64,000 nt of DNA, from sequence record NC_047884.1; one strand, written 5' to 3'. The DNA is from Escherichia phage saus132. The stretch's first letter is position 1; every line of letters begins with the position of its first letter. The notes under the pieces are model-generated. The model made no database searches. It had not been told where the DNA came from and was given only the letters and a program-made list of their open reading frames with translations. The position numbers were made by a program, and so were the translations under genes. This document shows positions 6,430 to 36,740 of this stretch, in pieces.

Positions 6430-6507
6430 TGGTGGCTCCCGGAGGATTCGAACCTACCTACCTTTCGCTTATGAGGCGACGGCTCATACCAAATGAGCTT
6501 GAGAACC
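6430..6507 (-). tRNA. tRNA with CAU anticodon (Met or Ile2), second copy
   Basis: Acceptor GGTTCTC/GGGAGCC, D stem GCTC/GAGC, anticodon arm GTCGC-CTCATAA-GCGAA, T loop TTCGAAT, CCA encoded. Confidence 0.6.
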
Positions 6508-6512
6508 AAATT

Positions 6513-6606
6513 TGGAGGAAGATGCCAGATTCGAACTGGCACACCGTGTCTCCACAGCTACTGGCTGTTTAGCAAACAGCTCCCTTACCTTTAGGGTTAA
6601 TCTTCC
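6513..6606 (-). tRNA. tRNA-Ser (GCU), long variable arm
   Basis: Acceptor GGAAGAT/ATCTTCC, anticodon arm GCTGT-TTGCTAA-ACAGC, long variable arm, T arm GCCAG-TTCGAAT-CTGGC, 94 nt with CCA. Confidence 0.8.
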
Positions 6607-6622
6607 AAATTTATGAATATAT

Positions 6623-6650
6623 TATATTAGAAATTTAGCTTCATGGCAAG
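6623..6650 (-). promoter_or_regulatory. promoter driving tRNA-Ser and tRNA(CAU)
   Basis: Minus strand -10 TATAAT plus conserved UTR-like sequence; -35 TTGCCA at suboptimal spacing. Confidence 0.45.
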
Positions 6651-7028
6651 AAAATTTTTCAAGTTTTCTGTATTCATTTCATCTAAATCCATGAGGGAAG
6701 TAAACCCATTTAGTTTTTTAGCAAAATTCTCACCAGCAGAATCATTATCGCCTACGGCTACTACTTTAAAAGGTTGTAATTTTAGCTGCTTTAGCAATGC
6801 TTTGCTAGGGGAAGATCCTAGCATTGCTAGTGCGGGATATCCCGCGTTGTGTAGTGCCACAGCTTTAAATACAGATTCTGCAACTAATACTAGGTCTTCA
6901 TTACCTGTAAGAGTTTCTAAACCCCATAGACATTGAGTAGAAGAATGCGTAAAATATTTAGCTTCAGAAGGACATTTTCCATGACCTTTAGCTGCACTAG
7001 GGTTATATGTTTGATATCCACGTAACAT
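6627..7028 (-). CDS. Toprim-domain protein (133 aa from first ATG); frame stays open upstream to an in-frame TAA at 7113-7115 that follows a 10-codon ATG-initiated leader
   Basis: Toprim-like Glu (LVLVAESVF) and DxD (VVAVGDNDSAGE) motifs; promoter and strong SD lie upstream of the ATG at 7143, not of the ATG at 7028. Confidence 0.5.
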   Translation of the reverse strand: MLRGYQTYNPSAAKGHGKCPSEAKYFTHSSTQCLWGLETLTGNEDLVLVAESVFKAVALHNAGYPALAMLGSSPSKALLKQLKLQPFKVVAVGDNDSAGENFAKKLNGFTSLMDLDEMNTENLKNFLAMKLNF

Positions 7029-7176
7029 GCCAGAGAAATCATACAGTGGAACTGTTAACCATCCATGTGGAGAGAGCCAACAGTGATACTTATCACTATC
7101 AAAGCCCCTAGATTAAAGATGTTGTTTTAACTCGTCAACAGTCATATATGACTCCTATCTATAATTTATAGAATAT

Positions 7177-7205
7177 ATTATATAGAAAATTTCGGCATTA
7201 AGCAA
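7177..7205 (-). promoter_or_regulatory. early promoter cassette upstream of Toprim-gene leader
   Basis: Minus strand -35 TTGCTT, 17 bp, -10 TATAAT. Confidence 0.6.
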
Positions 7206-21695: not shown

Positions 21696-21723
21696 AATCT
21701 AAAATTACAGCCATTATAGGCCT

Positions 21724-21747
21724 AATAAAGGGGCTTTCGCCCCTTAT
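21724..21747 (-). terminator. terminator after nrdA
   Basis: Hairpin AAGGGGC-TTTC-GCCCCTT then U-run on minus strand. Confidence 0.55.
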
Positions 21748-21750
21748 TTA

Positions 21751-24144
21751 TTATAATTGACAACCACCAGATGCGCATCCAGCAGCAGCTTCCTCTCCTG
21801 CACCTCCACCATTTTCAGTGTTGAAGTTTGCATAATAAAAGGTTTTCCAACCGTACTTAACAGCAGTCATAAAGTCACGAACTACTACTGGGCCGGGAAT
21901 GATTTCATTCTCGAACTTGGTGTAGTCATAGTACATATTCGTACTGATAGACTGGCTGAAGAATTTCTGCATGGTTGCTACCCATTTGATCCACTCGATA
22001 CGATCTACATCATAAGCCAGTTTATAGCTCATTAATGTATCCCAATCAGTTGCACCTGGAGCAATTGCAATTACTTTATTCACTGCACTACCCTTGATAG
22101 ATACGATCTTACGGGGCGGTTCGATAGAGTTAGTAACACCTAGCAGTACAGAGGAACTTTCACCTGGCATCTGAGCAGTCAGAACAGAGTTGCGCATACC
22201 ATATTTCAGAATATCTGCACGCAGAGATTCCCAATCCATTTCTAGACCTACAGTTACCAGTTCATCAACAGTTTTCTTGTACGTGTCGATTACCAGAGTT
22301 CCTTGCGAAGGCTTAGTACGATTAAACCAGTCACATGCACCTTGTTCTTTAGCCAGACGTACAGAGGCTTTATGTAGGAAGTAGGACAGCTTTTCAGCTT
22401 CACGGTGAATCCAGTTACGTGCTTCAACACCTTCGTAAGCCAAACCTTCTGCTGCCATTGCACCTGCTGCGTTCATCAGACCAATACCAACGTTACGACG
22501 TTTCTTAGCCGTGTATTCCATAGTTGGGAATGGATAATCCTGAATCTCGATGATTGTATCAACGAATTTCAGAAGGATGTAGCAAGTTTTCTCCCATTCA
22601 GCCAGAGATTCCATGCGGCCTAGTACAACACCACCTAAGTTACACAGAGATACTTCACCAATATCTTCTGGACGCATATCGTCTAACTGATCTTGGGTTT
22701 TATACAGTTCCGTAACGTGATGGAATGGACGGGTTGGCTGAGTAATTTCAACACAAAGGTTGGTCATACGAATCGGGTCAAGGAAGTTACCATGACGGTT
22801 AGATTCACCAATGTGATGAGCATACATACGCCCTGTTTCCATACGGATACGTAACCAAGTATCTAGGATTTCTTTTGCAGAGATTCTAGGAGCTGCTGGA
22901 ATTGTTTTTCCTTCGTGGTCGATCTTTGTAAGAGATGCCACACGTTTCTCCGCTGCCACGTAGATTTCTTCAAACTTAGCCTCATCTTCACCATAAAACG
23001 CTTCATGAACTTCTGGTGCGTAGAAGTAGGACATTAGCGTAATATCTTCGTTTTTCAGGTAACGTTTTAACAGAAGGTTGTTAAAGCTCAGAGAATAATC
23101 CATCTTATCGATTTTATTCTCGTCTGTAGCACGTTGCTGCTTAACCTGCATCAACTGAATGATTTCAGGATCGAAGTATGGATAAGACACAGTAGCAGAA
23201 CCGCCACGGGTTTGCTGAGTGTTAGCTTTTACTGAACGGTCAATGTGTCGATAATATGGCAGTTTTCCGGAATGCGGGAATGCCCCATTTCGCACCGGAT
23301 CAGCAATTGATCGGCTTTCAAGATGATACCCGATTCCCGCTCTGGCTGCGACCATTTTGAAGACGATATGCTCGGCTGTGTCGATTGAATCCAGCGTGTC
23401 AGTGGAATCCACGAGGCAACAACTAGCAAATCCACGGTCACTAGAGCGCAGGCCAACCAGTGGCGGCGTAGGAACGTTGATTTTGTGGAGCGACATTGCA
23501 TTGTAGAGGTCGATTGCATCTAGAATTGTCCAGTTAGGTTGAGATAACATCGCCATTGCCATACCCATGTAGGCAAACTGCGGGGTTTCATAAATTTCAC
23601 CAGTTGCAATATTACGACGAGAATACTTGTCGAAGAACTGTTTCAGTCCACCACTGGTGAATAAACGATCGCGATCATGATCAATAACTTGGTTCAGAGC
23701 GTCAAACTGATCATCGCTAATCCATGCACTCATGTCTTCCCAAGCGCCAACACGAACCATATGATCGTGGAAGAAACGCAGAGAAGGTGGTTCGAAGGAA
23801 TCATATAGGCGTTTACGCATCTGCGCAAGACGTAATTCCTTTGCTGGCACATCGTATGCTGGGTTATCTTTGATAAGACCTTCAGCGGCTTTAATTAACG
23901 CATCCATTAGGGTATCGGAATCTACAACACCTTTAGGTAGAGTTTTTTGAGCAGACATAGTGATGGCTGACCAGCTCACATCAACTGTTTTGCAGCCATA
24001 TACTGCCCAACCATTGAGTTTTTCAGGAGCAAAGTCTTCTACAGTACCGTCACGTTTAATTACTTTTGTAATTCTAAAGTCCATTGCGGTTTCCTTTTTA
24101 TAGTTCTCAGGATTTAGATAGTATTCTACTTTGTTTTGAGTCAT
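21751..24144 (-). CDS. nrdA: ribonucleotide reductase class I large (alpha) subunit
   Basis: 797 aa; NLCVEITQP active-site motif; C-terminal Cys pair. Confidence 0.85.
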   Translation of the reverse strand: MTQNKVEYYLNPENYKKETAMDFRITKVIKRDGTVEDFAPEKLNGWAVYGCKTVDVSWSAITMSAQKTLPKGVVDSDTLMDALIKAAEGLIKDNPAYDVPAKELRLAQMRKRLYDSFEPPSLRFFHDHMVRVGAWEDMSAWISDDQFDALNQVIDHDRDRLFTSGGLKQFFDKYSRRNIATGEIYETPQFAYMGMAMAMLSQPNWTILDAIDLYNAMSLHKINVPTPPLVGLRSSDRGFASCCLVDSTDTLDSIDTAEHIVFKMVAARAGIGYHLESRSIADPVRNGAFPHSGKLPYYRHIDRSVKANTQQTRGGSATVSYPYFDPEIIQLMQVKQQRATDENKIDKMDYSLSFNNLLLKRYLKNEDITLMSYFYAPEVHEAFYGEDEAKFEEIYVAAEKRVASLTKIDHEGKTIPAAPRISAKEILDTWLRIRMETGRMYAHHIGESNRHGNFLDPIRMTNLCVEITQPTRPFHHVTELYKTQDQLDDMRPEDIGEVSLCNLGGVVLGRMESLAEWEKTCYILLKFVDTIIEIQDYPFPTMEYTAKKRRNVGIGLMNAAGAMAAEGLAYEGVEARNWIHREAEKLSYFLHKASVRLAKEQGACDWFNRTKPSQGTLVIDTYKKTVDELVTVGLEMDWESLRADILKYGMRNSVLTAQMPGESSSVLLGVTNSIEPPRKIVSIKGSAVNKVIAIAPGATDWDTLMSYKLAYDVDRIEWIKWVATMQKFFSQSISTNMYYDYTKFENEIIPGPVVVRDFMTAVKYGWKTFYYANFNTENGGGAGEEAAAGCASGGCQL

Positions 24145-24207
24145 TATGCAAGTACAATTTTTCAGATAAAAAGAGCCCGGATATTTTCATACCCAGGCTC
24201 GTCTGTC

Positions 24208-24450
24208 TTACCATTTAAGTTTATCGGCTTGATCAAGTAACTGCTGTTGTATTTCTCGGTTAAAGAGAATATCTACAGAAGTACTTAGTTCATTATAGTT
24301 GAAAGGCCGATTTGGATTAGAGGCTACAATTTTCCACGCTAGGGTAGTCTTAGGACTTTCTTCTCCTTCCTTACGTGTAATCATATTAGCAGCACTCAAT
24401 GAAGTACGGTGGATCTTAGTTTTGCGGTGCAGATGTACGACGTTTCCCAT
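24208..24450 (-). CDS. hypothetical protein (80 aa)
   Basis: ORF between nrdA and phoH. Confidence 0.4.
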   Translation of the reverse strand: MGNVVHLHRKTKIHRTSLSAANMITRKEGEESPKTTLAWKIVASNPNRPFNYNELSTSVDILFNREIQQQLLDQADKLKW

Positions 24451-24451
24451 A

Positions 24452-25213
24452 TTACACCTTCCCCATATCCTTAAAGATATCGTAGAATGCTTTAGACTCT
24501 GGTGAGCGAACGTTGTCGATCAGTTCGATCATAGAGAAAGGAGAGTTTTCGTACTTCTCATAGACTTCCATAAGAAGTGCTAGACCTGAATCACCCTTGA
24601 TGTCTTTCTGAGCTATATCTCCACAGATAATTAGACGACAATCTTGTCCGACACGAGTCAAGAGACAGATCATTGCTTCAACGGAGATATTCTGAGCTTC
24701 ATCGACAATTACATAGGAGTTGTTGAAAGTTCGGCCACGGGCATGTTCGATAGCCAGGAATTTGATTTTCTGACGTTCGACATATCCTTTGTAGGCGTGA
24801 TCACCGATTGCCCATTTCATGCCATCGGCTATTGGTTCCAACCAAGGCTCTAGCTTTTCTGCTAGATCACCTGGGAGCATACCAAGAGATTTACCTAGAG
24901 GTTCGTTCGGACGCACGAGGATCACTTGCTCAATATCTGAGTGAATGTCTACGAGTTCCTGAGCTGCAAGAACGGACGGAATAAAGGTTTTACCAGTACC
25001 TGGTTCACCGATACCCACAGTCACTGTGTTGTTCTTGATCATATTGATATATGATTTTTGCTCACGGTTTTTACCAACTAGGGATTTAGCAACTGGATTG
25101 GCGTAATCACCAGAGAAATCTGCTTGAATTACGTTACTCTCATACTTGTTGCCACGCTTTCTTGAACCATTGCGGTTCTCTCTTTTTTGACGTGCTTTTC
25201 CCATAAATAACAC
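24452..25213 (-). CDS. phoH: PhoH-like ATPase
   Basis: Walker A GEPGTGKTF and Walker B VIVDEAQN. Confidence 0.85.
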   Translation of the reverse strand: MLFMGKARQKRENRNGSRKRGNKYESNVIQADFSGDYANPVAKSLVGKNREQKSYINMIKNNTVTVGIGEPGTGKTFIPSVLAAQELVDIHSDIEQVILVRPNEPLGKSLGMLPGDLAEKLEPWLEPIADGMKWAIGDHAYKGYVERQKIKFLAIEHARGRTFNNSYVIVDEAQNISVEAMICLLTRVGQDCRLIICGDIAQKDIKGDSGLALLMEVYEKYENSPFSMIELIDNVRSPESKAFYDIFKDMGKV

Positions 25214-25277
25214 TCCTATAGTGTACTTCGCTAACAGAGGATCAACAAAAAGATCTTGTTTATCAACTTACAAATAT

Positions 25278-25306
25278 ATTATACCAATATATGCGGGAGA
25301 AAGCAA
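25278..25306 (-). promoter_or_regulatory. promoter for phoH-nrdA block in divergent intergenic region
   Basis: Minus strand -35 TTGCTT, 17 bp, -10 TATAAT. Confidence 0.6.
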
Positions 25307-25498
25307 CTACAATTTTAAATAAGCCTATGATATTGCATTTAAATAAAAAATTTGCTTGCTTTTATTGGGAGATGTATGGTACTAGATAATCATTTTATAT
25401 CGCGTACACGGGCGCGTGATTATACTATTTTTAATAGAGGTTGGCAAATAAAATTTTTTGACTCAGATCATGTTACAGAACTTTATAGTAAAATATTG

Positions 25499-25527
25499 TT
25501 GACATCCGCCTTCGAATGAGTTATAAT
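25499..25527 (+). promoter_or_regulatory. promoter for nrdD
   Basis: -35 TTGACA, 17 bp, -10 TATAAT, SD GAAGGAGGG. Confidence 0.65.
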
Positions 25528-25556
25528 AGTAGTCTTAGTTAGAGAAGGAGGGTATA

Positions 25557-27431
25557 ATGAATCGCAATGAAGAACTAAAATATAAAGGAATGCAGTCCTT
25601 AATTCGAAACTGCAAAGAAATTATCGAAGGTTCAGCAGATGAAGAGCTGCTGTTTAATAATGCCAATAAGCCCTCAGAACGTTTCCCTACACAAAGGGAT
25701 ATGCTTGCAGGGGAATTGAGTAAATATCTGATTCTGGAAGAAATGCCAATCCAGATTCGAAATGCTCACATGATTGGTGATATTCACTTCCATGATGCTG
25801 ATTACGCTGCGTTAGGTATGACTAACTGTTGCCTGGTTGCTTTGGAAGATATGTTGAAGAATGGTATGAAGGTTGGTAATGCTGAAATCAGTACGCCAAA
25901 CTCCATTACTACTGCGGCTGCTATTACAGCTCAGATTATCACTCAGGTTAGCTCACACCAATATGGTGGTACTTCTGTAGACCGATTAGATGAAGTATTG
26001 GCTCCTTATGTTCGTAAGTCTTACGATAAGAATCATGCGTTTGCAAAACGTTGGACTAAGGATGAAGCCAAAGCATCTGTAATGGCTACGGAAATGACTG
26101 AGAAAGAAGTTTACGATGCCTGTCAAGGTCTAGAGTATGAAATCAATACGATGTTCAACTCTAATGGTCAGAGTCCATTTATTACCTTTGGTTTTGGTCT
26201 AGGAACTTCCTGGGAAGCACGTCTTGTACAGAAAGCAATCTTAGAAGTGCGTATGGATGGTTTGGGTATCAATAAACGTACAGCTATCTTCCCTAAACTG
26301 GTATTTGTTTTGCGTGATGGCGTAAATATGAAACCTGGTGATGTTAACTATGATATCAAGAAGTTAGCTATGAAATGTACTGCTGAACGTATGTATCCTG
26401 ACTACATCAGTTATGATAAGGTTGTAGAAGTTACGGGAGACTACAAAGTCTCTATGGGCTGTCGTTCATTCCTGGCTGCTGCGGAAGATGGTGAAACTTC
26501 TGGTCGTAACAACTTAGGCGTTGTTTCCGTAAACCTTCCTCGAATCGCTATCGAAGCGGAAGGAAATATTGATCTATTCTTCGATCTGCTTGAGCTGCGT
26601 GTGGATACCGCGTTAAAAGCATTGGAGTGGAGGGTTGATCGCTTAAAATACATCCAAGCTAAAGCTGCGCCCATCCTCTATATGTCAGGAGCCTTTGGAT
26701 TACGTCTGGGGCCAGATGAATATGTGTTTGATCATTTCTACAAGCGTGCTTCTGTATCTCTAGGATATATTGGTTGCCACGAAATGTTGCAGCTCATGTT
26801 TGGTAAAGATGTAGATACAATGTCTGAGTCTTGTATCAAGTTCGTTCAACGTGTGCTACAATACATGCGTGATCGTGCTGATCAGAAGAAGGAAGAGACT
26901 CAATTAGGGTATAGTCTGTATGCTACACCATCTGAATCTCTATGTGATCGCTTCTGTCGTCTAGATCGTGAGTATTTCCCAGAGCATGAAGATATTCTGG
27001 CTAAAGGATATTACACTAACTCTCATCACCTTGATGTGGAGCGTAAGGTTGCTCCGAACGTGAAGTTCGATTATGAGTCTAACTTTACCCCAATTGCTTC
27101 TGGTGGGTGCATTTCCTATGTGGAATTGCCTGATATGAAACGATTCCCAGATGCGCTGGAGTGGGTTATTAACTATGCTGCAAGTAAAGTTCATTACTTC
27201 GGTATTAATACTCCAGTAGACTCTTGTGGGGAATGTGGATTCTTGGGTGAAACTATAGCTTCTGAGGATGGTTTCAAATGCCCAATTTGTGGCAACCATG
27301 ATCCTGAGACTCTTGAGGTAACTCGTCGAGTTTGCGGATATCTTGGAAATCCAGGTGCTCGTCCATTTAACCCAGGTAAACAACATGAGGTTATGGGTCG
27401 AGTGAAACATCAGGACATTCGCGCTAAATAA
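25557..27431 (+). CDS. nrdD: anaerobic ribonucleoside-triphosphate reductase
   Basis: C-terminal glycyl-radical motif RVCGYLG and CPICGNHD zinc site; SD GGAGGG. Confidence 0.85.
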   Translation: MNRNEELKYKGMQSLIRNCKEIIEGSADEELLFNNANKPSERFPTQRDMLAGELSKYLILEEMPIQIRNAHMIGDIHFHDADYAALGMTNCCLVALEDMLKNGMKVGNAEISTPNSITTAAAITAQIITQVSSHQYGGTSVDRLDEVLAPYVRKSYDKNHAFAKRWTKDEAKASVMATEMTEKEVYDACQGLEYEINTMFNSNGQSPFITFGFGLGTSWEARLVQKAILEVRMDGLGINKRTAIFPKLVFVLRDGVNMKPGDVNYDIKKLAMKCTAERMYPDYISYDKVVEVTGDYKVSMGCRSFLAAAEDGETSGRNNLGVVSVNLPRIAIEAEGNIDLFFDLLELRVDTALKALEWRVDRLKYIQAKAAPILYMSGAFGLRLGPDEYVFDHFYKRASVSLGYIGCHEMLQLMFGKDVDTMSESCIKFVQRVLQYMRDRADQKKEETQLGYSLYATPSESLCDRFCRLDREYFPEHEDILAKGYYTNSHHLDVERKVAPNVKFDYESNFTPIASGGCISYVELPDMKRFPDALEWVINYAASKVHYFGINTPVDSCGECGFLGETIASEDGFKCPICGNHDPETLEVTRRVCGYLGNPGARPFNPGKQHEVMGRVKHQDIRAK

Positions 27432-27436
27432 TGAAT

Positions 27437-27470
27437 CAGCCAGGTTGCTAGTCGACCTGGCTTTTATTTT
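27437..27470 (+). terminator. rho-independent terminator after nrdD
   Basis: Hairpin AGCCAGGT...ACCTGGCT then TTTTATTTT. Confidence 0.7.
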
Positions 27471-27473
27471 ATT

Positions 27474-27502
27474 TGCTTTCGAGCTAAAACTTAGGTATAA
27501 TT
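27474..27502 (+). promoter_or_regulatory. promoter
   Basis: -35 TTGCTT, 17 bp, -10 TATAAT. Confidence 0.6.
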
Positions 27503-27518
27503 GTACAAGGAGGGCTAA

Positions 27519-28205
27519 ATGGTACGAAGGAAGTTAGATAAAGACACTATCAATAAAGATTTAGAGCCTAGAAGAATTAAGCTAATAAGTGAGTATTCTG
27601 GAATCCTTAATAAAGGCACATTCATATGTAGTGTAGGTCATACATGGGAAGCTACTGTTAATAATGTAAGGAATAGCAAATCTGGCTGTCCAATATGCGC
27701 AGGTACTTTTAAACTTACTAAAGATTCGGTAAATGAAGGGTTACGTAGTAGGGGTATTACTCTTATTGGAGAGTATAAAAATAATGCTACTAAAACTCTT
27801 TTTGAATGTGAGCATGGGCATAGGTGGGAAGCCACAGTAGGCAATGTAAAGAATAAAAATTCTGGGTGTCCTGTGTGCGATACTGATTGGAATACCCCTG
27901 GTTTTATATACATTATGTGTAGTAGTATGGGAACTAAAATAGGAATTAGTATCTCTCCTGAAAGACGGTGGAAAGAGATAGTTAAAAGCTCCAATATACT
28001 AGATTTATATATTTTTGGTGTCTATTCAATAGATTCTGGTACCAAATCTAAAAGTAGGTCTATCGAGAAACAGACTCATGAATATTTTTCAGAATATAGA
28101 TTAAAGTATACAGGATTTGCTGGATGTACTGAATTCTTTGATATATCTCCCATAGCCGTAGAAAAGCACTTAATTAATAATGGGTGTATAAAGGTAGAAA
28201 AATAA
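27519..28205 (+). CDS. zinc-ribbon repeat protein with C-terminal T5orf172 (GIY-YIG-like) domain
   Basis: Two repeats CxxGHxWEATVxNVxNxxSGCPxC, then GFIYIMCSSMGTKIGIS. Confidence 0.5.
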   Translation: MVRRKLDKDTINKDLEPRRIKLISEYSGILNKGTFICSVGHTWEATVNNVRNSKSGCPICAGTFKLTKDSVNEGLRSRGITLIGEYKNNATKTLFECEHGHRWEATVGNVKNKNSGCPVCDTDWNTPGFIYIMCSSMGTKIGISISPERRWKEIVKSSNILDLYIFGVYSIDSGTKSKSRSIEKQTHEYFSEYRLKYTGFAGCTEFFDISPIAVEKHLINNGCIKVEK

Positions 28206-28214
28206 ATAAAGTAC

Positions 28215-28245
28215 TTGCTTATATTACTTTTATTTGATATTATAT
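28215..28245 (+). promoter_or_regulatory. promoter
   Basis: -35 TTGCTT, about 17 bp, AT-rich -10, conserved UTR-like sequence. Confidence 0.5.
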
Positions 28246-28270
28246 TATTATAAATTAGAGAGGAGGGTGT

Positions 28271-28630
28271 ATGAAATTAAAACCATTTATTGTTGTATCT
28301 AAACTAGGGCATTATCACGTAGGAGTAGATACAATTCAGGAAGCTATTTTTGCTGCTACAGGTGATTACTCATTACTAGAAGGTATTGGGTATCCTACAT
28401 TACTAGGAGACTTCGTAGAGCAAGAACTAGATATTACTGTCTATAATCCTATATATGAAGAACCTGAAGACTTAAAAGAGACTCTAGAATTTGTATACTG
28501 GAACCACTTACAAGTATTTAATGTTACCTCTAATGGCACAGAGGATTTCTCTTCTGCTATTAAGTATTATATTAAACAAGTTTACTATGATTATTTCTAT
28601 GAGGATATTGGAGCGGAGCTAAAAGTATGA
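28271..28630 (+). CDS. hypothetical protein (119 aa)
   Basis: ORF with SD GAGGAGGG. Confidence 0.5.
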   Translation: MKLKPFIVVSKLGHYHVGVDTIQEAIFAATGDYSLLEGIGYPTLLGDFVEQELDITVYNPIYEEPEDLKETLEFVYWNHLQVFNVTSNGTEDFSSAIKYYIKQVYYDYFYEDIGAELKV

Positions 28631-28830
28631 AAAACGTAAAACATCTTAAGTATCGCTTAATTTACAACGGACGTATGGAAATAGAAGATCTAGCTCAGCT
28701 AGCGATCAATTCAGATGAAGTTACAGTTCGTGCTTTGTCCATCGAGAAGCTGCGTGCTTCTTACGAAAATCGTATTATGGAATTAGAGGAGAAACTTTAT
28801 GGCATTCTCGAGTCAGAAGCTACCAGGTGA
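28627..28830 (+). CDS. hypothetical protein (67 aa)
   Basis: ORF overlapping upstream stop. Confidence 0.4.
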   Translation: MKNVKHLKYRLIYNGRMEIEDLAQLAINSDEVTVRALSIEKLRASYENRIMELEEKLYGILESEATR

Positions 28831-29044
28831 AAATGTTAGTCTTATTGATCTGAATAAGCTCAATCAAGAGTTTCAGGGAGTTTTAATGAAGCACTGGGAA
28901 ACTGGTTATAAGGATGGTGTTGAATCCTGTGCTACTATGCTAGAAGTTCTTGCTGATAACCTAGTGGAGAAAGGCAATAAAGAATTAGCTGAGCTGTTAG
29001 ACAGTATTGGGCAAAACTTTAGAGAACAGGTGAAAAATGCGTAG
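28799..29044 (+). CDS. hypothetical protein (81 aa)
   Basis: ORF. Confidence 0.4.
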   Translation: MAFSSQKLPGENVSLIDLNKLNQEFQGVLMKHWETGYKDGVESCATMLEVLADNLVEKGNKELAELLDSIGQNFREQVKNA

Positions 29045-29888
29045 ACTAATCGTTGTTAGTGGTGCAGGTTTGAGTGTAGATAGTGGTGTTCGTGCTTTCC
29101 GTACTGATACTGCTAGTGGGAAATCCTTGTGGGATGAGTACGATCTAGAGGAAGTATGTAGCTTGCCTAACTTTGAAGCTGGCTTCCGTCGCTTCTGTGG
29201 TGAAGATGATCCTAACTACTTCAGTGCTCGTTTCCCTGGCATTGATGAAGATGGTAACGATCTGTATCTCAAGACTCATGAGTTCTACAACATGCGTCGT
29301 CAGGAATTACAGACTGTTGAGCCTAACATTGCCCATCTGCGAATTGCAGAATGGTTCCAGCGTTATGGTGCGGATAGCGTGAAGAACTTCACTACTAACG
29401 TTGATGACCTTCTGGAGCGCGCTGGTATCCCTCGTGATGAAATCATCCATGCTCACGGATACTTGAAAGAGGTGATCTATCGTCGGGGTCGCAATCAAAT
29501 CATCGAAGATGTTGGATACACTGCAATTGTTCCTGAAGATTACGAATGGGTAAAACCAAACGTGGTGTTCTTTGGTGAAACAGCTCCGTGGTACATGGGT
29601 CAGATCAACCTGTTTGATACGCTTACTAGCAATGATATGGTTATTGTGGTGGGTTGTAGCAACCAAGTTATCAACTTCAACTGGGAATTATTCCCTGCTG
29701 TATGTCGTGGAACTAAGATGATGGTTGTTAACCCTCAAGTTCGTTATGATGAACAGCTTGAGTATGAGAAACGTGGTGTTACTGTATGGCGGGCTGGAGC
29801 TGCCGAAGTTTTTGGTAACAAGAATTTCATTGGTCAAGTAGAAGCCTTTATGGAAGGAACTATTTATGCACCGCAAGAGCATGTGTGA
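29037..29888 (+). CDS. SIR2-like NAD-binding protein (283 aa)
   Basis: VVSGAGLSVDSGVRAFR NAD-binding motif and IHAHGY catalytic His region; no clear CxxC...CxxC zinc ribbon. Confidence 0.6.
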   Translation: MRRLIVVSGAGLSVDSGVRAFRTDTASGKSLWDEYDLEEVCSLPNFEAGFRRFCGEDDPNYFSARFPGIDEDGNDLYLKTHEFYNMRRQELQTVEPNIAHLRIAEWFQRYGADSVKNFTTNVDDLLERAGIPRDEIIHAHGYLKEVIYRRGRNQIIEDVGYTAIVPEDYEWVKPNVVFFGETAPWYMGQINLFDTLTSNDMVIVVGCSNQVINFNWELFPAVCRGTKMMVVNPQVRYDEQLEYEKRGVTVWRAGAAEVFGNKNFIGQVEAFMEGTIYAPQEHV

Positions 29889-30048
29889 TCTTTTAGTATG
29901 GCCGGACGGTAGTTGGTGCTACCGTTTCGAATTTGCTACCGATGACTTCTCATGGAAGAGTGATGATTTCTGCGTTATCTATGAGGATACAGCAGAATGG
30001 AAAGAGTTCCTTATTAAGGAGGGAGAATATGGTGAAGAAGATTTTTAA
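29866..30048 (+). CDS. hypothetical protein (60 aa)
   Basis: ORF. Confidence 0.35.
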   Translation: MHRKSMCDLLVWPDGSWCYRFEFATDDFSWKSDDFCVIYEDTAEWKEFLIKEGEYGEEDF

Positions 30049-30214
30049 GGGTATCTGGAAGGGTCTAGTATGGTTTGTCAACCTAATTGGTATGATTACC
30101 ATTTATTCTCTGTTCCTATCTGTTATGTGGGGTAAAGGTGAGCTGAAGGTTCCGGTTCCTTTTACTGATGAAGTTAAAGTCTGGACGTGGGATGCTACTG
30201 GTGGAAATAAGTAA
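30029..30214 (+). CDS. small membrane protein (61 aa)
   Basis: ATG after SD AAGGAGGGAG; hydrophobic core. Confidence 0.4.
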   Translation: MVKKIFKGIWKGLVWFVNLIGMITIYSLFLSVMWGKGELKVPVPFTDEVKVWTWDATGGNK

Positions 30215-30707
30215 TACTCCTGTGATTTTCCTGGATATTGATGGGGTACTCAATTCGAGCATCTCTCACCATCATGCTCTAGACAGTGAAAAGCTGTTCT
30301 TTGGCAGTGATTGGGTTTATAAGCCATTACTCCAGGTTTTTCAGAACTTTCTTAAACCCTCCCCAATAATGATTGTTGGGGTCTCTTCATGGTTTTCTGT
30401 ACGAAATGAAATGGAGAACGTTCAGATTATGACCGGACTCGGTTTGATCGATCGTTTCCTTGGTACAACAGATTTTACTGGAGGTGGTTTATATCGGGGT
30501 AATTCTGTTTTACGTTTCGTCGAAAAACATAAGCTCAAGCATTGGTGTGTCTTAGACGATGCTGGTGCTATGATGTATCAATTTCCTACTGTTATTGTAA
30601 ATGGCAGGACTGGAGTAAACCTTCAAGATTTAAATGCTATAAGCTATATGCTGGAATTTAGTCCAGATCTTGAAATGTGTAAGGCTCTTCAGAAACTTAA
30701 GGTATAA
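30168..30707 (+). CDS. HAD-superfamily phosphatase-like protein
   Basis: N-terminal VIFLDIDGVLN (DxDG) motif; start may be ATG at 30192. Confidence 0.5.
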   Translation: MKLKSGRGMLLVEISNTPVIFLDIDGVLNSSISHHHALDSEKLFFGSDWVYKPLLQVFQNFLKPSPIMIVGVSSWFSVRNEMENVQIMTGLGLIDRFLGTTDFTGGGLYRGNSVLRFVEKHKLKHWCVLDDAGAMMYQFPTVIVNGRTGVNLQDLNAISYMLEFSPDLEMCKALQKLKV

Positions 30708-30709
30708 GC

Positions 30710-31138
30710 ATGTTCAATAATATTTTCATGAAAGAGGTAAATCCTATGCTCCTCAACTTCTGGCGTTCTCTCCCTAATGGTATGTATAATGAAACCATCA
30801 ATCTGCTTAAGATTTGGTGTGAGAATAATGATATCTTCTTATCCTTTAAAGGCCCACTAGAGGAAGCTCCATGTATTGGAGTTAGTGTGGATTTAGGTGA
30901 GGGAGTAGAAGAGATTGTAGACTGGAAAGAACTCGATGAAATGGGTCTGGTTTTTGCCTTAAATCATAAGCTGTTTATGCCTGCAAATCACCGTCTTATT
31001 GTAAATTATCGCACTGGTGAAGCTCCTGCTTTCCAGGTAAATGAACGTGAGGGCTGGTCATATTCGCCCGAGGAAGTAAATGAGGGGATTCAGAAACTTC
31101 GTCGTTTCGGGTATATGATCCCAGGTTTAACTGCTTAA
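30710..31138 (+). CDS. hypothetical protein (142 aa), paralog of next gene
   Basis: Shares FALNxxxF...ETGExP and LxRxGxxxPGL motifs with 31148-31543. Confidence 0.5.
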   Translation: MFNNIFMKEVNPMLLNFWRSLPNGMYNETINLLKIWCENNDIFLSFKGPLEEAPCIGVSVDLGEGVEEIVDWKELDEMGLVFALNHKLFMPANHRLIVNYRTGEAPAFQVNEREGWSYSPEEVNEGIQKLRRFGYMIPGLTA

Positions 31139-31147
31139 GGAGGCAGA

Positions 31148-31543
31148 ATGGAACAAGTATTTTGGCGTCAGATAGATCCTAGTTTGGTAGAGCGTGCTGA
31201 GGGGCTCCTTGCACGTTGGTTGGGGGTTGACAAGGTTAGTGTAACATTTCCGTTTACTTCTGTAACAGACCCTAGTGTAGGTGTCTTTGTGGACGAAGAT
31301 GAAGATGATGGTTGGGAAGCTGACTGGAATGAATTGTCCAGTATGGGCTTGATTGTTGCCCTCAACTTCTCTATATTCCATCCACGTGGCTTAGCCATTA
31401 CACGTGACCCCGAAACTGGTGAATCCCCTTATCTTTTGCAAGTAGAAGATGATATTTGGGAGTACACCGAAGATATTCTCGAAGAAGCTAAAGGTCAATT
31501 AAATCGCATTGGGATCTATGTTCCAGGCCTAAATGATGATTGA
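31148..31543 (+). CDS. hypothetical protein (131 aa), paralog of previous gene
   Basis: Tandem paralog; SD AAGGAGG. Confidence 0.5.
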   Translation: MEQVFWRQIDPSLVERAEGLLARWLGVDKVSVTFPFTSVTDPSVGVFVDEDEDDGWEADWNELSSMGLIVALNFSIFHPRGLAITRDPETGESPYLLQVEDDIWEYTEDILEEAKGQLNRIGIYVPGLNDD

Positions 31544-31634
31544 TTTTCATTAGTCCAATCCTGATTACCGAGTCATTTTGGCTCGGTTTTCTCTGTGCTC
31601 AAAGACACTGATAGCACCTTCGGAAAAATTTTAC

Positions 31635-31663
31635 TTGCAGGATGCTCAAAATCTTGATATAAT
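31635..31663 (+). promoter_or_regulatory. promoter with conserved UTR-like sequence but no ORF for about 500 nt
   Basis: -35 TTGCAG, 17 bp, -10 TATAAT. Confidence 0.55.
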
Positions 31664-32159
31664 ATTTATATTGAATTGAGAGACATTAGTAAAAATTGAT
31701 TTTGCTAATTTTTCTTGTTTACAATCCGCAATACGGAACAGTTAGGCTGCCCCATTAAGGGTTGTTTTAACTATTACTAGTGTTTATACTGCATTAGTTA
31801 ATTATCAATTAAGTGATCTGCGTACCCTGAATTCGGAAAGGTAAATCCAAACCGTGCATATTTAGCTCGTTATATAGGCAGAGCTTTATATGGGGGTGCG
31901 AACGAAAAGAGCAGCGAATGGTGACACGTCCAGTAGCCACCTACCAATAGGATAGTGAGGGCAATCAGAATCGGCTTAGCGGCCAATGACCTAGGTTCTG
32001 ATCTGGATAAGAGTTAAGAGAGCGCAGCACTGAGGTATGATAACTTATTCATACTGCTTGATGATGATTAATGTTTGTGTAAATGGTAGTAATAGTTGTT
32101 CTATTCTTTTGAATAGTCCTAAAGAAAGATATCCGAATAACCAACATAGGAGTATTGTT

Positions 32160-34949
32160 GTGTTCTCAATCCTACAAGGTCACGCAGGATTTTCCAGAGA
32201 TAAAGCCACTGGCATCTGGAAAGAGATCAAAGTGGAAGACTACACCTTTGCAAAGCGATTCTCTAAAGAGCATCCAGAAGGTAAACCAGCTTCCATGCCC
32301 TTCAAATTTGATGTACTTGAAGAACTTGACCCGCAAAACCTTGCTGAAATGTTACCTATCATGCGTCGTCTTACCAAAGACCCGCATATTGTAGCTATTC
32401 GTGGTAAATGTTTAGCTCCAAAAGATAATGTGCGTCGTACCAGAGGAAACTTTAATGTATCCAATCCTAGTCATATTATTGCTATGGACGTGGATGGTAT
32501 TGTAGATACTGGTGGCTATGACAAGTTTAATCTTGTCGGCATGGCACGTCATATTATTAAGATGTTGAATAGTATTAGTGAGGATATGTTTCCTCTTGAT
32601 GCAGGGTTTATTGCTCATGCATCGTCTTCGGCTGGCTTAAAACCAGGTATCCGAATGCACTTAATGCTAGAATCTAATGTCAAGGTAACGCAGGGGCAAT
32701 TAAAATTCCTATTTACATCCATCAATGACAGTAGTAAGCAAAAGTATGGCTTTGATATTGCTGACTTAGCTTATTATTCTTCTGTTCAGCTTCACTATTT
32801 CGCAGATCCCTTATTTGATGATGGTATAGTCGATCCGTTTAAAGCGGAGAATAAACCACGTCTTGTGTATGTTAAGGGTTCGAAAGTGAATCTACCCAAT
32901 AACCTAGTTGACTTTGAAACAACTAGAGGTGAGTTTAAAGAAGAATTCTACTCCTTACTTGACCAAATTAAAGGCAAGAAGGCTGCATCTGATAAAGTGG
33001 AAGAAACCATCAGCGAACTAGAAGAAGCTGAGGATGGGGTGTACCTGCGTATTATCCCAAAACTTTATCACAGAGCGTTAGAAGATGGTGTTGACTTTAC
33101 GTGGTTAGAACGTGAGATTAAACCAGCTTTATCTGAGTATATTGCGACTAAAGATAATAGTCGTAATATTCAAGATTACTTTAATAACGGTCGTAAGCAG
33201 GCTCTCAAAGCCTTTGTAAATAACTCCAAACGTGAGATTCCACCAAACTTAAAAGGTGTACCATTAAAACGTCTAGACACAGATTCTCCACCAGAAGTTC
33301 CATACCTGAAAATTAACATTGTACCACCAAAAGGACATTTAACATTTGTTAAGGCAAGTCTTGGTACGGGTAAAACTACAGCAGTAACTAAGTGGCTAGA
33401 TGCAGGTGTTCTTCCAGGGAACTTTATTGCAATCACAAATACTAGGGCACTTGTATCTTCTAACGCGAAGAAATTCGGTGCTGGCCAGTATGATAAGTCA
33501 GTTGATATGCTGAACTTCAAACGTGGTGCTATTGATCGTATGTCTTCAACTATTCACTCTATCCATAAGTTCAAGAGCTTTGTGGGTCAGATTGATACGA
33601 TCTTTATTGATGAATGTGATGCAGTAATGAACGATCTGTTATTCGCTCCGGTTGTTAAAAACCGTCGTGAATGTATTCAGGTTCTTCGTGATATTCTTAT
33701 TACTGCAAAAACGGTGATCTTATCTGATGGGGATATCAGTGCAGAAACGATTGAAGCCTATGGTTCTTTGATTGATTTTGATAAACCGGTTGCGTTCTAT
33801 AATCATCACCGTAAAATGCTGGCAAAAGCTCATGCTTATGAATTCCCTGACGAATCCAGTATTTGGGTTGCACTTCAAACATCTCTAGAGATGGGTGAGA
33901 AGTCAATCCTAGTATCTGACTGTGGACCAGATGAACTGAATGAAAAGGGAATGGCATTACGTCGTAATACGGGTGCGTTAGTTAAAGAAATTCACTCAAA
34001 CTCTACGTCTGATGTAGATATCCGTCGTATTCTGGATTATACAACTAATGAGCTAATTGATCAACAGATTGATTGTTTGTTATGTAGTCCATCTGTAACG
34101 AGTGGTGTTGACTTTAACTATTTTGATAACGTATTCGTAATCACTAGAACCTCAAACCAAGCGCCAAACATGCGTTTTCAAGCAATCAGGCGCGACCGTG
34201 GTGCTCAGAACATTTATTATTTTATTGATAAATCTACGAGTGGATTTTCTGCGGGTTCCGAGCAATATAATATTGACGAAGGTTGGATTGAGTTAGCCCA
34301 ACAACTGTACGCACGTCGCCGTGAGCTGGAATCTAGAAACTATACCAGTACTTTGCGTTATTATCTTCTCGATCAAGGTGCAACTATCGATATTTTCAGC
34401 GAAAGCTGGGGAACTATCGAAGGTGCAGGCAAAGAGTATATAGAAGAGCGAATCAAAGCTATTTTGCACTCAACTCCTGAATATTGCGCACCACGTCATG
34501 CAGACGCCTATGAAGCCAAGTTACTTCTGGTTCGCTATTATCATCTGGATTCTATTAAAGATGTAATAGTGGAACACGTTGAACAGTATATTAAGGATAA
34601 ACCAAACGATAGAGCTGCATTCTTCCATAAGATGCACGACATGTTCTGGGAAGATATTAAAAAGTGTTCAAACGTAACAATCAAACCGTTTATCGAAGCT
34701 CTTAAGAATAAGAAGAAGGATTTCTTCCTTAAGACAGGTCAGAGCGCTAACCCAAAATATGCTCGTATGTATCTTGGCATGATGGGTATCGGTAAAGATC
34801 TGGATACGGAAAAGATTGTGGACTGGTACAGAACTTACTGTAAGATCGAATGTATGCCGATTCCAGTTAAGTTTATGACAGATGAAGAACGTCAGATGCA
34901 TGAGGAAGCTCTTGCTGAATTGGGGGCTAGAAATGACAGCGAAGAATAA
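32160..34949 (+). CDS. putative replication helicase / origin-binding protein (about 930 aa)
   Basis: Walker A FVKASLGTGKTT and Walker B IFIDECDA; start set at GTG 32160 after SD AGGAG (track start ATG 32037 has no SD). Confidence 0.55.
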   Translation: MFSILQGHAGFSRDKATGIWKEIKVEDYTFAKRFSKEHPEGKPASMPFKFDVLEELDPQNLAEMLPIMRRLTKDPHIVAIRGKCLAPKDNVRRTRGNFNVSNPSHIIAMDVDGIVDTGGYDKFNLVGMARHIIKMLNSISEDMFPLDAGFIAHASSSAGLKPGIRMHLMLESNVKVTQGQLKFLFTSINDSSKQKYGFDIADLAYYSSVQLHYFADPLFDDGIVDPFKAENKPRLVYVKGSKVNLPNNLVDFETTRGEFKEEFYSLLDQIKGKKAASDKVEETISELEEAEDGVYLRIIPKLYHRALEDGVDFTWLEREIKPALSEYIATKDNSRNIQDYFNNGRKQALKAFVNNSKREIPPNLKGVPLKRLDTDSPPEVPYLKINIVPPKGHLTFVKASLGTGKTTAVTKWLDAGVLPGNFIAITNTRALVSSNAKKFGAGQYDKSVDMLNFKRGAIDRMSSTIHSIHKFKSFVGQIDTIFIDECDAVMNDLLFAPVVKNRRECIQVLRDILITAKTVILSDGDISAETIEAYGSLIDFDKPVAFYNHHRKMLAKAHAYEFPDESSIWVALQTSLEMGEKSILVSDCGPDELNEKGMALRRNTGALVKEIHSNSTSDVDIRRILDYTTNELIDQQIDCLLCSPSVTSGVDFNYFDNVFVITRTSNQAPNMRFQAIRRDRGAQNIYYFIDKSTSGFSAGSEQYNIDEGWIELAQQLYARRRELESRNYTSTLRYYLLDQGATIDIFSESWGTIEGAGKEYIEERIKAILHSTPEYCAPRHADAYEAKLLLVRYYHLDSIKDVIVEHVEQYIKDKPNDRAAFFHKMHDMFWEDIKKCSNVTIKPFIEALKNKKKDFFLKTGQSANPKYARMYLGMMGIGKDLDTEKIVDWYRTYCKIECMPIPVKFMTDEERQMHEEALAELGARNDSEE

Positions 34950-35166
34950 AAAGTGGGAAACAAGGAAGTTTCCCGTAAAAGAACGTAAAACTTCTGTTTA
35001 CGATACTGCGGAGAAACTATGTAGGGTTGTACCACCTCGTCTCGCGGGCATCCCTAACGTCTCCATATGGTTACTTAAACAACGGAAGACTCGTGTGTCT
35101 CTTCGCATTGGCTTTGAGTTAGATAAAGTCTATGCTGAACTTGCTTCTTTGCTCAAAGAATCGTAA
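34932..35166 (+). CDS. hypothetical basic protein (78 aa)
   Basis: ORF overlapping helicase stop. Confidence 0.35.
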
Positions 35167-35174
35167 AAATTTAT

Positions 35175-35203
35175 TTGCTTTCAGAAAAATTTTTCTGTAT
35201 AAT
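35175..35203 (+). promoter_or_regulatory. promoter
   Basis: -35 TTGCTT, 17 bp, -10 TATAAT, conserved UTR and SD. Confidence 0.65.
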
Positions 35204-35234
35204 AGATTCATAAATTTGAGAGAGGAGTTTAAAT

Positions 35235-35939: not shown

Positions 35940-36186
35940 ACTAACTGATCTGTTAAAAGCTGGAGACGTAAAATATCTCCAGCGAGATAGCTGGGAAAAT
36001 AATACTTATTCTACCACTATCATCAAAGTAGATGTTGATAATAACAACATTATAGAATTTACTTGGTGGTGGTCTAAAGATGGGCGCACTAAACCCACGC
36101 TAGACGATGCATCGTGGAAAACCACTGAGCTAACTCTAGACGAAGCCCTAGCTGACGATTGGGAGATCGTTGAACTAGATGTGTAG
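35932..36186 (+). CDS. hypothetical protein (84 aa)
   Basis: ORF. Confidence 0.45.
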   Translation: MSKLTDLLKAGDVKYLQRDSWENNTYSTTIIKVDVDNNNIIEFTWWWSKDGRTKPTLDDASWKTTELTLDEALADDWEIVELDV

Positions 36187-36206
36187 CAGTTACTGAAAAA
36201 TTTCAG

Positions 36207-36235
36207 TTGCTCAATCCTATAATTCTTGATATAAT
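36207..36235 (+). promoter_or_regulatory. promoter
   Basis: -35 TTGCTC, 17 bp, -10 TATAAT. Confidence 0.55.
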
Positions 36236-36704: not shown

Positions 36705-36740
36705 TTCTTAGATAAATCCACCAACACAAGGAATACAGTT

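What the first reader, a model, noticed from the sequence alone, without database searches (positions are those of the whole stretch)
6627..7143. Second in-frame TAA: 10-codon leader with promoter and SD, stop, then Toprim-domain frame continues
Seen in sequence: a promoter cassette (7177-7205) and strong SD (AGGAG) precede ATG 7141-7143; after 10 codons (MTVDELKQHL) comes TAA at 7113-7115; the same frame then stays open 28 more codons with no ATG/GTG/TTG and runs into the 133-aa Toprim-domain ORF, whose first ATG (7028) has no SD. Inference: ancestral gene started at 7143 and is disrupted (pseudogene), or expression relies on readthrough or reinitiation. With the ltf case this makes two UAA-interrupted genes in 64 kb. 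None of the tRNAs parsed here has a UUA anticodon, so a phage-encoded ochre suppressor is not supported by this window.
Basis: partly seen in the sequence, partly recalled or inferred. Interest (0 to 1): 0.6.

Follow-up and report, generated by a model that had tools for sequence, protein, structure and literature searches.

The report
Nonsense-mutated accessory primase-like phage gene
A single T-to-A change turned a leucine codon into a stop in a small, dispensable primase-like gene of one clone of T5-like phages, so this is an ordinary recent pseudogene and not stop-codon recoding.

Summary
On the minus strand a promoter, an AGGAG Shine-Dalgarno and an ATG (7145-7143, not 7141-7143) open a 10-codon frame. 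It ends at TAA 7115-7113, and the same frame then runs open to the stop at 6629-6627.

The window is the T5-like phage poul149/saus132 (chee130_1 group). The full 172-codon frame is the ortholog of T5p074, "DNA primase-like protein", a minimal DnaG-type RNA-polymerase/Toprim domain. All 27 intact orthologs I tabulated start at the same ATG and have Leu at codon 11 (TTA 25, CTA 2). Relatives that are 99.7% identical differ from the window by T-to-A at 7114.

The TAA allele occurs only in the chee130_1 group: five records in the phage collection, six contigs in the gene index. The authors describe six isolates that differ by 2-5 nt.

Codons 1-39 are under strong purifying selection in the family and form part of the fold. 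No tRNA has a UUA anticodon, and TAA is the main terminator. Only this gene and ltf carry internal stops among 83 CDS compared. The ltf TAA is a within-clone SNP already published. The T5 ortholog lies in a deletable region.

Verdict: a recent loss-of-function nonsense mutation. Low interest.

The parts
7177..7205 (-). Early sigma-70-type promoter: -35 TTGCTT at 7205-7200, 17-nt spacer, -10 TATAAT at 7182-7177. It is homologous to T5 promoter P15a.
   Evidence: Sequence. The T5 record AY734508 annotates promoter P15a immediately upstream of T5p074. Both hexamers are conserved in the alignment with T5 and S126. The site falls below the threshold of the simple scan.
7152..7156 (-). Shine-Dalgarno AGGAG, 6 nt before the ATG.
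   Evidence: Sequence. A GGAG/GAGG-type motif sits at the same place in 29 related loci.
7143..7145 (-). Ancestral and still functional start codon ATG of the primase-like gene.
   Evidence: Orthologs are annotated from this ATG, and ATG is present in all loci tabulated.
7116..7145 (-). Ten remaining translated codons, MTVDELKQHL.
   Evidence: They are identical to residues 1-10 of the intact 8sent65 and S126 proteins.
7113..7115 (-). Premature stop TAA, replacing the ancestral Leu codon TTA. The mutated base is window 7114 (T to A on the coding strand).
   Evidence: Alignment with 8sent65 and S126. Codon census among orthologs: TTA 25, CTA 2, TAA only in the window. The position is hydrophobic (L/M/I) even in homologs of 41-45% identity.
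6627..7112 (-). The remaining 161 sense codons plus the natural stop (6629-6627) of the ancestral 172-aa CDS, now downstream of the nonsense codon.
   Evidence: 98.8% identity to the 8sent65 CDS over residues 1-172, with one internal stop.
7026..7028 (-). First in-frame ATG after the stop (ancestral Met40). GenBank uses it as the start of the 133-aa 'hypothetical protein'. It has no SD and lies 84 nt after the stop.
   Evidence: In the structure model residue 40 falls between two strands of the N-terminal sheet.
6708..6893 (-). Toprim domain (residues 85-146 of the restored protein).
   Evidence: Pfam Toprim_2 at 2.6e-07 for residues 88-146, Toprim at 2.4e-05 for residues 86-146.
6726..6726 (-). 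The only other difference from the 99.7%-identical intact ortholog: AAG to AAT, Lys140 to Asn.
   Evidence: In the alignments all other homologs have Lys or Arg after the conserved GE or Gx.
6621..6649 (-). Separate promoter (TTGCCA, 17 nt, TATAAT; 11 of 12 matches) inside the 3' end of the gene, ahead of tRNA-Ser and tRNA-Met. It is homologous to T5 P15c.
   Evidence: Because of this promoter, the downstream tRNAs need not depend on translation of the mutated gene (inference).

Best explanation
The locus is the ortholog of phage T5 gene T5p074. This is a small accessory 'DNA primase-like' protein made of a DnaG-type RNA-polymerase domain: an N-terminal alpha/beta subdomain plus Toprim, with no zinc-binding domain. 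It sits in the early, deletable tRNA region of T5-like phages. In the common ancestor of the chee130_1 group, one T-to-A transversion at window 7114 changed Leu11 (TTA) to ochre (TAA). The inferred consequences are as follows. The promoter, SD and ATG still work. Ribosomes start at 7145, make the decapeptide MTVDELKQHL and terminate at UAA-U. The remaining 161 codons are essentially untranslated. Any reinitiation at AUG 7028 would give a protein lacking helix 1 and two strands of the N-terminal subdomain. The gene is therefore a very recent loss-of-function pseudogene. It is tolerated because the gene is not needed for growth on laboratory E. coli, and the downstream tRNAs have their own promoter. 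Shown here: the mutation, its direction, its restriction to the chee130_1 group, homology across the stop, and the absence of any recoding machinery. Inferred: the translation outcome and the lack of function.
For: The window is identical to chee130_1-group records. Its allele set is that of poul149/saus132.

Relatives at 99.7% identity (8sent65, bombadil, oselot and others) have TTA and an annotated 172-aa CDS from the same ATG. S126 and T5 show the same. Among 27 intact orthologs codon 11 is TTA in 25 and CTA in 2.

A 62-nt query finds the TAA allele in only 5 of 30 records, all 121,986 bp and from one study. The exact 133-aa product occurs on exactly 6 contigs of the gene index; the one place shown is MF431736.1 and the other five are listed as similar places. 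The authors state that the six isolates differ at 2-5 positions and that each was Illumina-sequenced and assembled with SPAdes (PMC5816814).

Homology to phrog_849 covers residues 3-167. dN/dS for codons 1-39 is 0.024-0.089, similar to 0.06-0.07 for codons 40-172. An AlphaFold model of the 94%-identical ortholog (pLDDT 89) places helix 3-12 and strands 23-25 and 29-35 before Met40. Its best PDB matches are DnaG and T7 gp4 primase catalytic domains.

No tRNA has anticodon UUA in the window or in record positions 22000-32100. TAA ends 64 of 83 CDS in the relative and 37 of 52 long open frames in the window. Only this gene and ltf have internal stops among 83 CDS compared.

Viable T5Mos lacks positions 30661-38625 (PMC11464382). 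That deletion contains the T5 ortholog at about 37282-37797 (L015). Two other T5-like genomes carry independent disruptions of this gene: L025 has GAA to TAA at codon 83, and L029 has a frameshift.
Against: Raw reads could not be inspected, so the base call rests on concordant assemblies from one laboratory. No expression data exist, so low-level reinitiation or readthrough cannot be excluded by sequence alone. Apart from one missense change the downstream ORF is undecayed. That fits a very recent event, but it would also be expected if the downstream part were still used. The function of the intact protein is unknown, so 'loss of function without cost' is inferred from T5 deletion mutants, not from this phage.
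Confidence: 0.9

Rival explanations
1. The TAA is a sequencing or assembly error, and the real phage has TTA and an intact gene.
For: All carriers come from one laboratory, one platform and one pipeline. The difference is a single base. Reads could not be checked.
Against: Each isolate was separately sequenced with Illumina 2x150 and assembled de novo with SPAdes, and the records carry the same base. The same assemblies resolve genuine single-base differences among the isolates elsewhere. The surrounding sequence (CATCTTTAATCTAGG) has only a three-T run, and the change is a substitution rather than an indel. By my recollection, Illumina consensus substitution errors in such context are rare.
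Confidence: 0.03
2. The UAA is decoded (programmed readthrough or ochre suppression by a phage or host tRNA), so full-length protein is still made.
For: The frame downstream is intact and nearly unchanged. A second gene, ltf, also carries an in-frame TAA in this window.
Against: The stop is absent from every ortholog outside the chee130_1 group. No tRNA with anticodon UUA was found among the 28 tRNAs called. TAA is the main normal terminator, so suppressing it would be costly. The stop is followed by U, which by my recollection is the most efficient E. coli termination signal. The isolation hosts were MG1655 and C600; by my recollection these carry no ochre suppressor, and C600 supE44 reads only UAG. 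The ltf TAA is a polymorphic SNP inside the clone with no host-range effect reported. Two TAA hits out of two is expected with P of about 0.2.
Confidence: 0.02
3. Ribosomes that terminate at the 10-codon ORF reinitiate at AUG 7028 and produce a functional 133-aa Toprim protein. The gene would then be remodelled rather than dead.
For: The Toprim domain itself (residues 85-146) lies wholly downstream of Met40. The ORF is intact and GenBank annotates it.
Against: There is no SD before 7028, and 84 nt separate the stop from the AUG. The truncation removes helix 3-12 and strands 23-25 and 29-35 of a confidently modelled compact domain. That domain matches the primase catalytic core as a whole. The removed residues are as strongly conserved as the rest, with dN/dS of 0.02-0.09 and the invariant motif HLxSRGF..Y.CW. 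No ortholog starts at Met40.
Confidence: 0.04
4. The 10-codon ORF is a genuine regulatory leader peptide (uORF) that controls the downstream Toprim gene.
For: It has a promoter, a strong SD and a short ORF immediately upstream of a longer ORF in the same frame.
Against: In all relatives the 'leader' is simply residues 1-10 of the protein, with no stop. A leader that exists in one near-clonal group and arose by one substitution is not a conserved regulatory element.
Confidence: 0.01

Closest known systems
Phage T5 gene T5p074, 'DNA primase-like protein' (AAU09415.1; PHROG 849), and its orthologs in Tequintavirus and Epseptimavirus
   Same: The restored protein is about 84% identical over all 172 residues. 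The start codon is the same and the promoter arrangement is the same, with a P15a-like site upstream and a P15c-like site at the 3' end. The neighbourhood in the early tRNA region is the same, with tRNA-Ser directly downstream. The Toprim domain is present.
   Different: In the window codon 11 is TAA instead of TTA, so the ORF is interrupted. There is one extra missense change, K140N.
DnaG-type primase RNA-polymerase domain (E. coli DnaG catalytic core 1DDE/1EQN; T7 gp4 primase fragment 1NUI)
   Same: The fold of the modelled ortholog matches these structures, with Foldseek E of 5e-06 to 2e-05, probability 1.0 and TMq of 0.55-0.73. The Toprim Glu and DxD motifs are present (AESVF and GDNDSAG).
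   Different: It is only 172 aa long and has no zinc-binding or helicase-binding domain. Identity to solved primases is 14-23%, and a sequence-only PDB search finds nothing significant. The phage has a separate replicative primase next to its helicase and polymerase. Primase activity has not been tested.
Nonsense and deletion mutations in dispensable genes of T5-like phages, such as the ltf stop codons in saus132/poul149/chee158 and the tRNA-region deletions of T5Mos and T5-123
   Same: It is a single-base premature stop in a gene not needed on K-12-type hosts. The authors report analogous SNP stops in the same phage set. The T5 tRNA region including this gene's ortholog is deletable.
   Different: This stop is fixed in the records seen rather than polymorphic among them. 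It does not appear among the SNPs listed in the authors' Table 3, and their record annotates only the 133-aa remnant as a hypothetical protein.
Stop-codon recoding in phages (suppressor-tRNA-mediated reassignment of a stop codon, as described for some gut phages)
   Same: Only the superficial feature of an in-frame stop inside a homologous coding frame in a tRNA-rich phage.
   Different: There is no suppressor tRNA, TAA is the main terminator, the stop is not conserved in any relative, and only two genes are affected, each by an independent SNP.

Membership tests
T5p074-type primase-like protein (PHROG 849) gene locus | Sequence homology over the whole protein length | tested here: met
   phrog_849 at E 3e-56 over residues 3-167. 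tblastn gives 83-99% identity over residues 1-172 in about 270 T5-like records.
T5p074-type primase-like protein (PHROG 849) gene locus | Toprim domain with conserved Glu and DxD | tested here: met
   Pfam Toprim_2 and Toprim score above their cut-offs. E90, D133 and D135 are invariant in alignment A2.
T5p074-type primase-like protein (PHROG 849) gene locus | Same genomic position and promoter arrangement as in T5 | tested here: met
   The gene lies in the early tRNA region with tRNA-Ser directly downstream, and the P15a-like and P15c-like promoters are conserved.
T5p074-type primase-like protein (PHROG 849) gene locus | Uninterrupted reading frame of about 172 codons | tested here: not met
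   TAA at codon 11. The locus is therefore a pseudogene copy of the family, not a functional member.
Bona fide DnaG-type DNA primase | RNA-polymerase domain fold (N-terminal subdomain plus Toprim) | tested here: met
   Model with pLDDT 89. The top Foldseek hits are DnaG and T7 gp4 catalytic domains.
Bona fide DnaG-type DNA primase | N-terminal zinc-binding domain for template recognition | tested here: not met
   The protein starts directly with the RNA-polymerase domain. Pfam finds only Toprim families. At 172 aa it is much shorter than the 310-320-residue catalytic cores alone.
Bona fide DnaG-type DNA primase | Primer synthesis activity | not testable with these tools
   This needs biochemistry. 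The phage has another primase gene beside its helicase.
Programmed stop-codon readthrough or reassignment | The in-frame stop is conserved among orthologs | tested here: not met
   TAA occurs only in the chee130_1 group. There are 27 intact orthologs with a Leu codon.
Programmed stop-codon readthrough or reassignment | A cognate suppressor tRNA is encoded | tested here: not met
   None of the 18 plus 10 tRNAs called has anticodon UUA.
Programmed stop-codon readthrough or reassignment | The reassigned codon is avoided as a terminator and is frequent inside genes | tested here: not met
   TAA ends 64 of 83 CDS and 37 of 52 long frames. Only 2 of 83 genes have internal stops.
Recent nonsense-mutation pseudogene | A sense codon one substitution away in close relatives, with a lineage-restricted stop | tested here: met
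   TTA to TAA at 7114. Records at 99.7% identity have TTA.
Recent nonsense-mutation pseudogene | The gene is dispensable under the conditions of propagation | tested here: met
   Literature: viable T5Mos lacks 30661-38625, which includes the ortholog at about 37.3-37.8 kb. Independent disruptions occur in L025 and L029. Dispensability was not tested in this phage itself.
Recent nonsense-mutation pseudogene | Relaxed selection or decay downstream of the stop | tested here: inconclusive
   There is only one further change, and it is non-synonymous (K140N). That is too few events to judge.

The most novel reading that the evidence does not exclude
Loss or truncation of the primase-like protein is adaptive rather than neutral. 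The chee130_1 group grows on E. coli and Shigella but not on Salmonella, while its nearest relatives are Salmonella phages. The L11* mutation might therefore have been selected during this host shift, for example because the intact Toprim protein triggers an E. coli defence. Alternatively, a reinitiated 133-aa fragment might have a new role.
Probability: 0.04. Interest if true: 0.35.

Novelty: already known. Interest (0 to 1): 0.07.

Why it matters
It matters mainly as a clean negative. The two in-frame TAA codons in this window are independent point mutations in genes that are dispensable in the laboratory. They are not evidence of ochre suppression or stop-codon recoding in T5-like phages.

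There is a practical consequence for annotation. The GenBank 'hypothetical protein' of 133 aa in the chee130_1-group records is the tail of a nonsense-interrupted T5p074 ortholog and should be flagged as a pseudogene.

It also adds a natural knockout to the evidence that this accessory primase-like gene is not required for lytic growth on E. coli K-12.

Tried and rejected
- An exact 32-mer covering both alleles (TWA) was scanned in IMG/VR and in the JGI metagenome contigs. There were no matches for either allele, so neither collection gave independent environmental evidence.
- A sequence-only search of the PDB gave only chance xylanase hits at E of 0.04 or worse. The relationship to primases needed the structure model.
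- The accession MF431737 (saus132) is not in the phage collection. One search counts six contigs with the exact 133-aa product but names only MF431736.1, so saus132 carrying the allele is inferred from the count matching the six published isolates.
- A first window-wide scan using all open frames of 70 aa or more from the relative produced many false 'internal stops' in non-coding frames. It was replaced by a scan restricted to annotated CDS.
- The search for homologous proteins returned only six clusters. This was a shallow alignment, but sufficient for a confident model.
- I considered the leader-peptide (uORF), suppressor-tRNA, host-suppressor, sequencing-error and reinitiation explanations. 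The reasons for rejecting each are given under the rival explanations.

Full report
**1. What is in the sequence**

All features lie on the minus strand.
- The -35 hexamer TTGCTT is at 7205-7200, followed by a 17-nt spacer and the -10 hexamer TATAAT at 7182-7177.
- AGGAG is at 7156-7152, and the ATG is at 7145-7143.
- Ten codons MTVDELKQHL follow, then TAA at 7115-7113.
- The same frame stays open to the stop at 6629-6627, 173 codons in all.
- The ORF listing begins the 133-aa ORF at ATG 7028. It defines an ORF as starting at the first ATG/GTG/TTG after a stop, so no in-frame start lies between the TAA and 7028.
- No Shine-Dalgarno precedes 7028.

**2. Identity of the window**

The region is 100% identical to five GenBank records of 'Bacteriophage T5-like' chee130_1, poul149, chee158, cott162 and saus176N. 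All are 121,986 bp and belong to Epseptimavirus saus132. Window position equals record position minus 32,000.

The window is identical to poul149 over 52,000-60,000. It carries C at 18,473 and A at 55,643, which is the saus132/poul149 allele set in the authors' SNP table.

**3. What the gene is**

With Leu restored at codon 11, the 172-aa protein has these matches.
- PHROG 849 'DNA primase' over residues 3-167, E 3e-56.
- Pfam Toprim_2 and Toprim over residues 86-146.
- About 84% identity over its whole length to T5 gene T5p074, 'DNA primase-like protein'. The T5 record also annotates promoter P15a just upstream and P15c at the 3' end. Both promoter hexamers are conserved in the window. The P15c-like site is found at 6649-6621 with 11 of 12 matches.

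An AlphaFold2 model of a 94%-identical ortholog is confident (pLDDT 89, pTM 0.86). It shows helix 3-12 and strands 23-25, 29-35, 41-47 and 64-68, followed by the Toprim alpha/beta unit. Foldseek against the PDB returns DnaG and T7 gp4 primase catalytic domains as best matches, with E of 5e-06 to 2e-05 and TMq up to 0.73.

The protein is therefore a minimal DnaG-type RNA-polymerase domain without a zinc-binding domain. The phage also has a conventional primase next to its helicase and polymerase, so this gene is an accessory paralogue of unknown role.

**4. The stop is a lineage-specific point mutation**

- Phage 8sent65 is 99.7% identical and annotates a 519-nt CDS from the same ATG. Its codon 11 is TTA. 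S126 (88.8% identical) and T5 show the same.
- In 27 intact orthologs, codon 11 is TTA in 25 and CTA in 2.
- In homologs of only 41-45% identity the position is L, M or I, inside an invariant HLxSRGF motif.
- A 62-nt query across the site finds the TAA version in 5 of 30 records, namely the five chee130_1-group records. The other 25 carry mismatches and an annotated CDS across the site.
- The exact 133-aa remnant occurs on exactly six contigs of the 153-billion-gene index. Only MF431736.1 is named; the other five are listed as similar places.
- The source paper states that the six isolates have the same genome length and differ from chee130_1 at 2-5 positions. Each was sequenced on Illumina NextSeq and assembled with SPAdes (PMC5816814).

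The mutation is thus TTA to TAA, a T-to-A change at window 7114. It is fixed in the records seen. The count of six contigs matching the six published isolates suggests it is fixed in all six, and it is therefore absent from the authors' list of within-group SNPs. A consensus error repeated in separate assemblies is unlikely but could not be excluded without reads.

**5. The part upstream of Met40 is real coding sequence**

Against S126, dN/dS is 0.024 for codons 1-39 and 0.060 for codons 40-172. Against more distant orthologs the values are 0.06-0.09 in both parts.

A product starting at Met40 would lack helix 1 and two strands of the N-terminal subdomain. Compared with 8sent65, the window gene has only two differences: L11* and K140N. 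The inactivation is therefore very recent.

**6. No sign of recoding**

- ARAGORN finds 18 tRNAs in the window and 10 more in record positions 22,000-32,100. None has anticodon UUA.
- TAA terminates 64 of 83 annotated CDS in 8sent65 and 37 of 52 long open frames in the window.
- When all 83 CDS of 8sent65 in the corresponding region are compared with the window, only two have internal stops: this gene and ltf.
- The ltf stop (TAA 55643-55641, codon 534 of 976) is the only difference from chee130_1 across 54,000-57,700 (A versus G at 55,643). In chee130_1 the CDS is intact.
- The authors list the ltf stop as a premature stop in saus132 and poul149, alongside a different one in chee158, and report no effect on host range.
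- In this 39.7%-GC genome, 45% of all one-step nonsense substitutions give TAA. Two TAA hits out of two therefore has a probability of about 0.2.
- The stop is followed by U. By my recollection UAAU is the most efficient termination signal in E. coli.
- The propagation hosts were MG1655 and C600. By my recollection these lack ochre suppressors.

**7. Dispensability**

[quoted passage not shown] The T5 ortholog lies at about 37,282-37,797 of the 121,750-bp T5 contig (L015), inside that deletion.

Two other T5-like genomes in IMG/VR have independent disruptions of the same gene. L025 has GAA to TAA at codon 83, and L029 has a frameshift near codon 140.

**8. Mechanism**

Transcription from the P15a-like early promoter and initiation at AUG 7145 presumably continue. 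Translation ends after ten codons. The rest of the message is untranslated, or at most reinitiated weakly at AUG 7028, which is 84 nt downstream and has no SD. The downstream tRNA-Ser and tRNA-Met have their own promoter.

These steps are inferred. The mutation, its direction, its distribution and the absence of suppressor machinery are shown.

**9. Verdict**

This is an ordinary, recent nonsense pseudogene of a known accessory gene in a near-clonal group of phage isolates. The readthrough or reinitiation reading and the idea of a UAA pattern are not supported. Interest is low. The main use is correcting the annotation and providing a natural knockout of T5p074-type genes.

Noticed in passing
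window 55641-55643 (minus strand), ltf ORF 54315-57242: This is the other in-frame TAA, the 'ltf case'. It is CAA to TAA at codon 534 of a 976-codon L-shaped tail fibre gene. It is the only difference from chee130_1 across 54000-57700, and chee130_1 has the intact 975-aa CDS. It corresponds to the premature stop at record position 87643 that the authors list for saus132 and poul149 (they number it Q443*).
   Followed up: yes
L025:601-1119 and L029:601-1120 (IMG/VR T5-like contigs of 118,118 and 109,654 bp): These are independent disruptions of the same primase-like gene in other T5-like genomes. L025 has GAA to TAA at codon 83, and L029 has a 1-nt insertion causing a frameshift near codon 140. 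Salmonella phage S.Kent 1-2-1 also matched in two pieces. The gene seems to be lost repeatedly.
   Followed up: partly
window 6621-6649 (minus strand): A near-consensus promoter (TTGCCA, 17 nt, TATAAT) lies inside the last codons of the primase-like gene, directly ahead of tRNA-Ser (6513-6606) and tRNA-Met (6430-6507). It is homologous to the annotated T5 promoter P15c.
   Followed up: partly
restored protein residues 90-94 (window about 6864-6878, minus strand): By eye, the Toprim glutamate motif reads E-S-V-F-K and is invariant in six homologs. DnaG and T7 primases, by my recollection, have E-G-x-x-D with a metal-binding Asp at the last position. Together with the missing zinc-binding domain, this hints that the intact protein may not be a conventional primase. 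I did not test this by structural superposition.
   Followed up: no
L038:8050-8125 and L038:9403-9495 (MF431738.1 30049-30124 and 31402-31494): GenBank annotates a tRNA-Gly and a tRNA-Ser here that ARAGORN did not call. The annotated tRNA-Ser overlaps a CDS. Neither is annotated as a suppressor.
   Followed up: no
phage collection hits H110-H121 and H127-H129: Distant homologs of this protein in Erwinia and Klebsiella jumbo phages and in mycobacteriophages match in two pieces, or lie under two adjacent annotated CDS ('DNA primase | DNA primase'). PHROGs also has separate families for the N-terminal (phrog_14043) and C-terminal (phrog_17952) parts. Split or frameshifted versions of this domain may be common.
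   Followed up: no
L035:22783-25868 (8sent65), corresponding to roughly window 21700-24800: There is a gap of about 3 kb without annotated CDS next to the ribonucleotide reductase gene in the relative's record. It may be an unannotated or interrupted nrd subunit. I did not examine it in the window.
   Followed up: no
whole phage (paper PMC5816814): The chee130_1 group lyses E. coli and Shigella but not Salmonella, although its closest sequenced relatives are Salmonella phages. Its reported burst size is about 44 PFU per cell, against about 1000 for chee24. No link to the nonsense mutations is shown.
   Followed up: no
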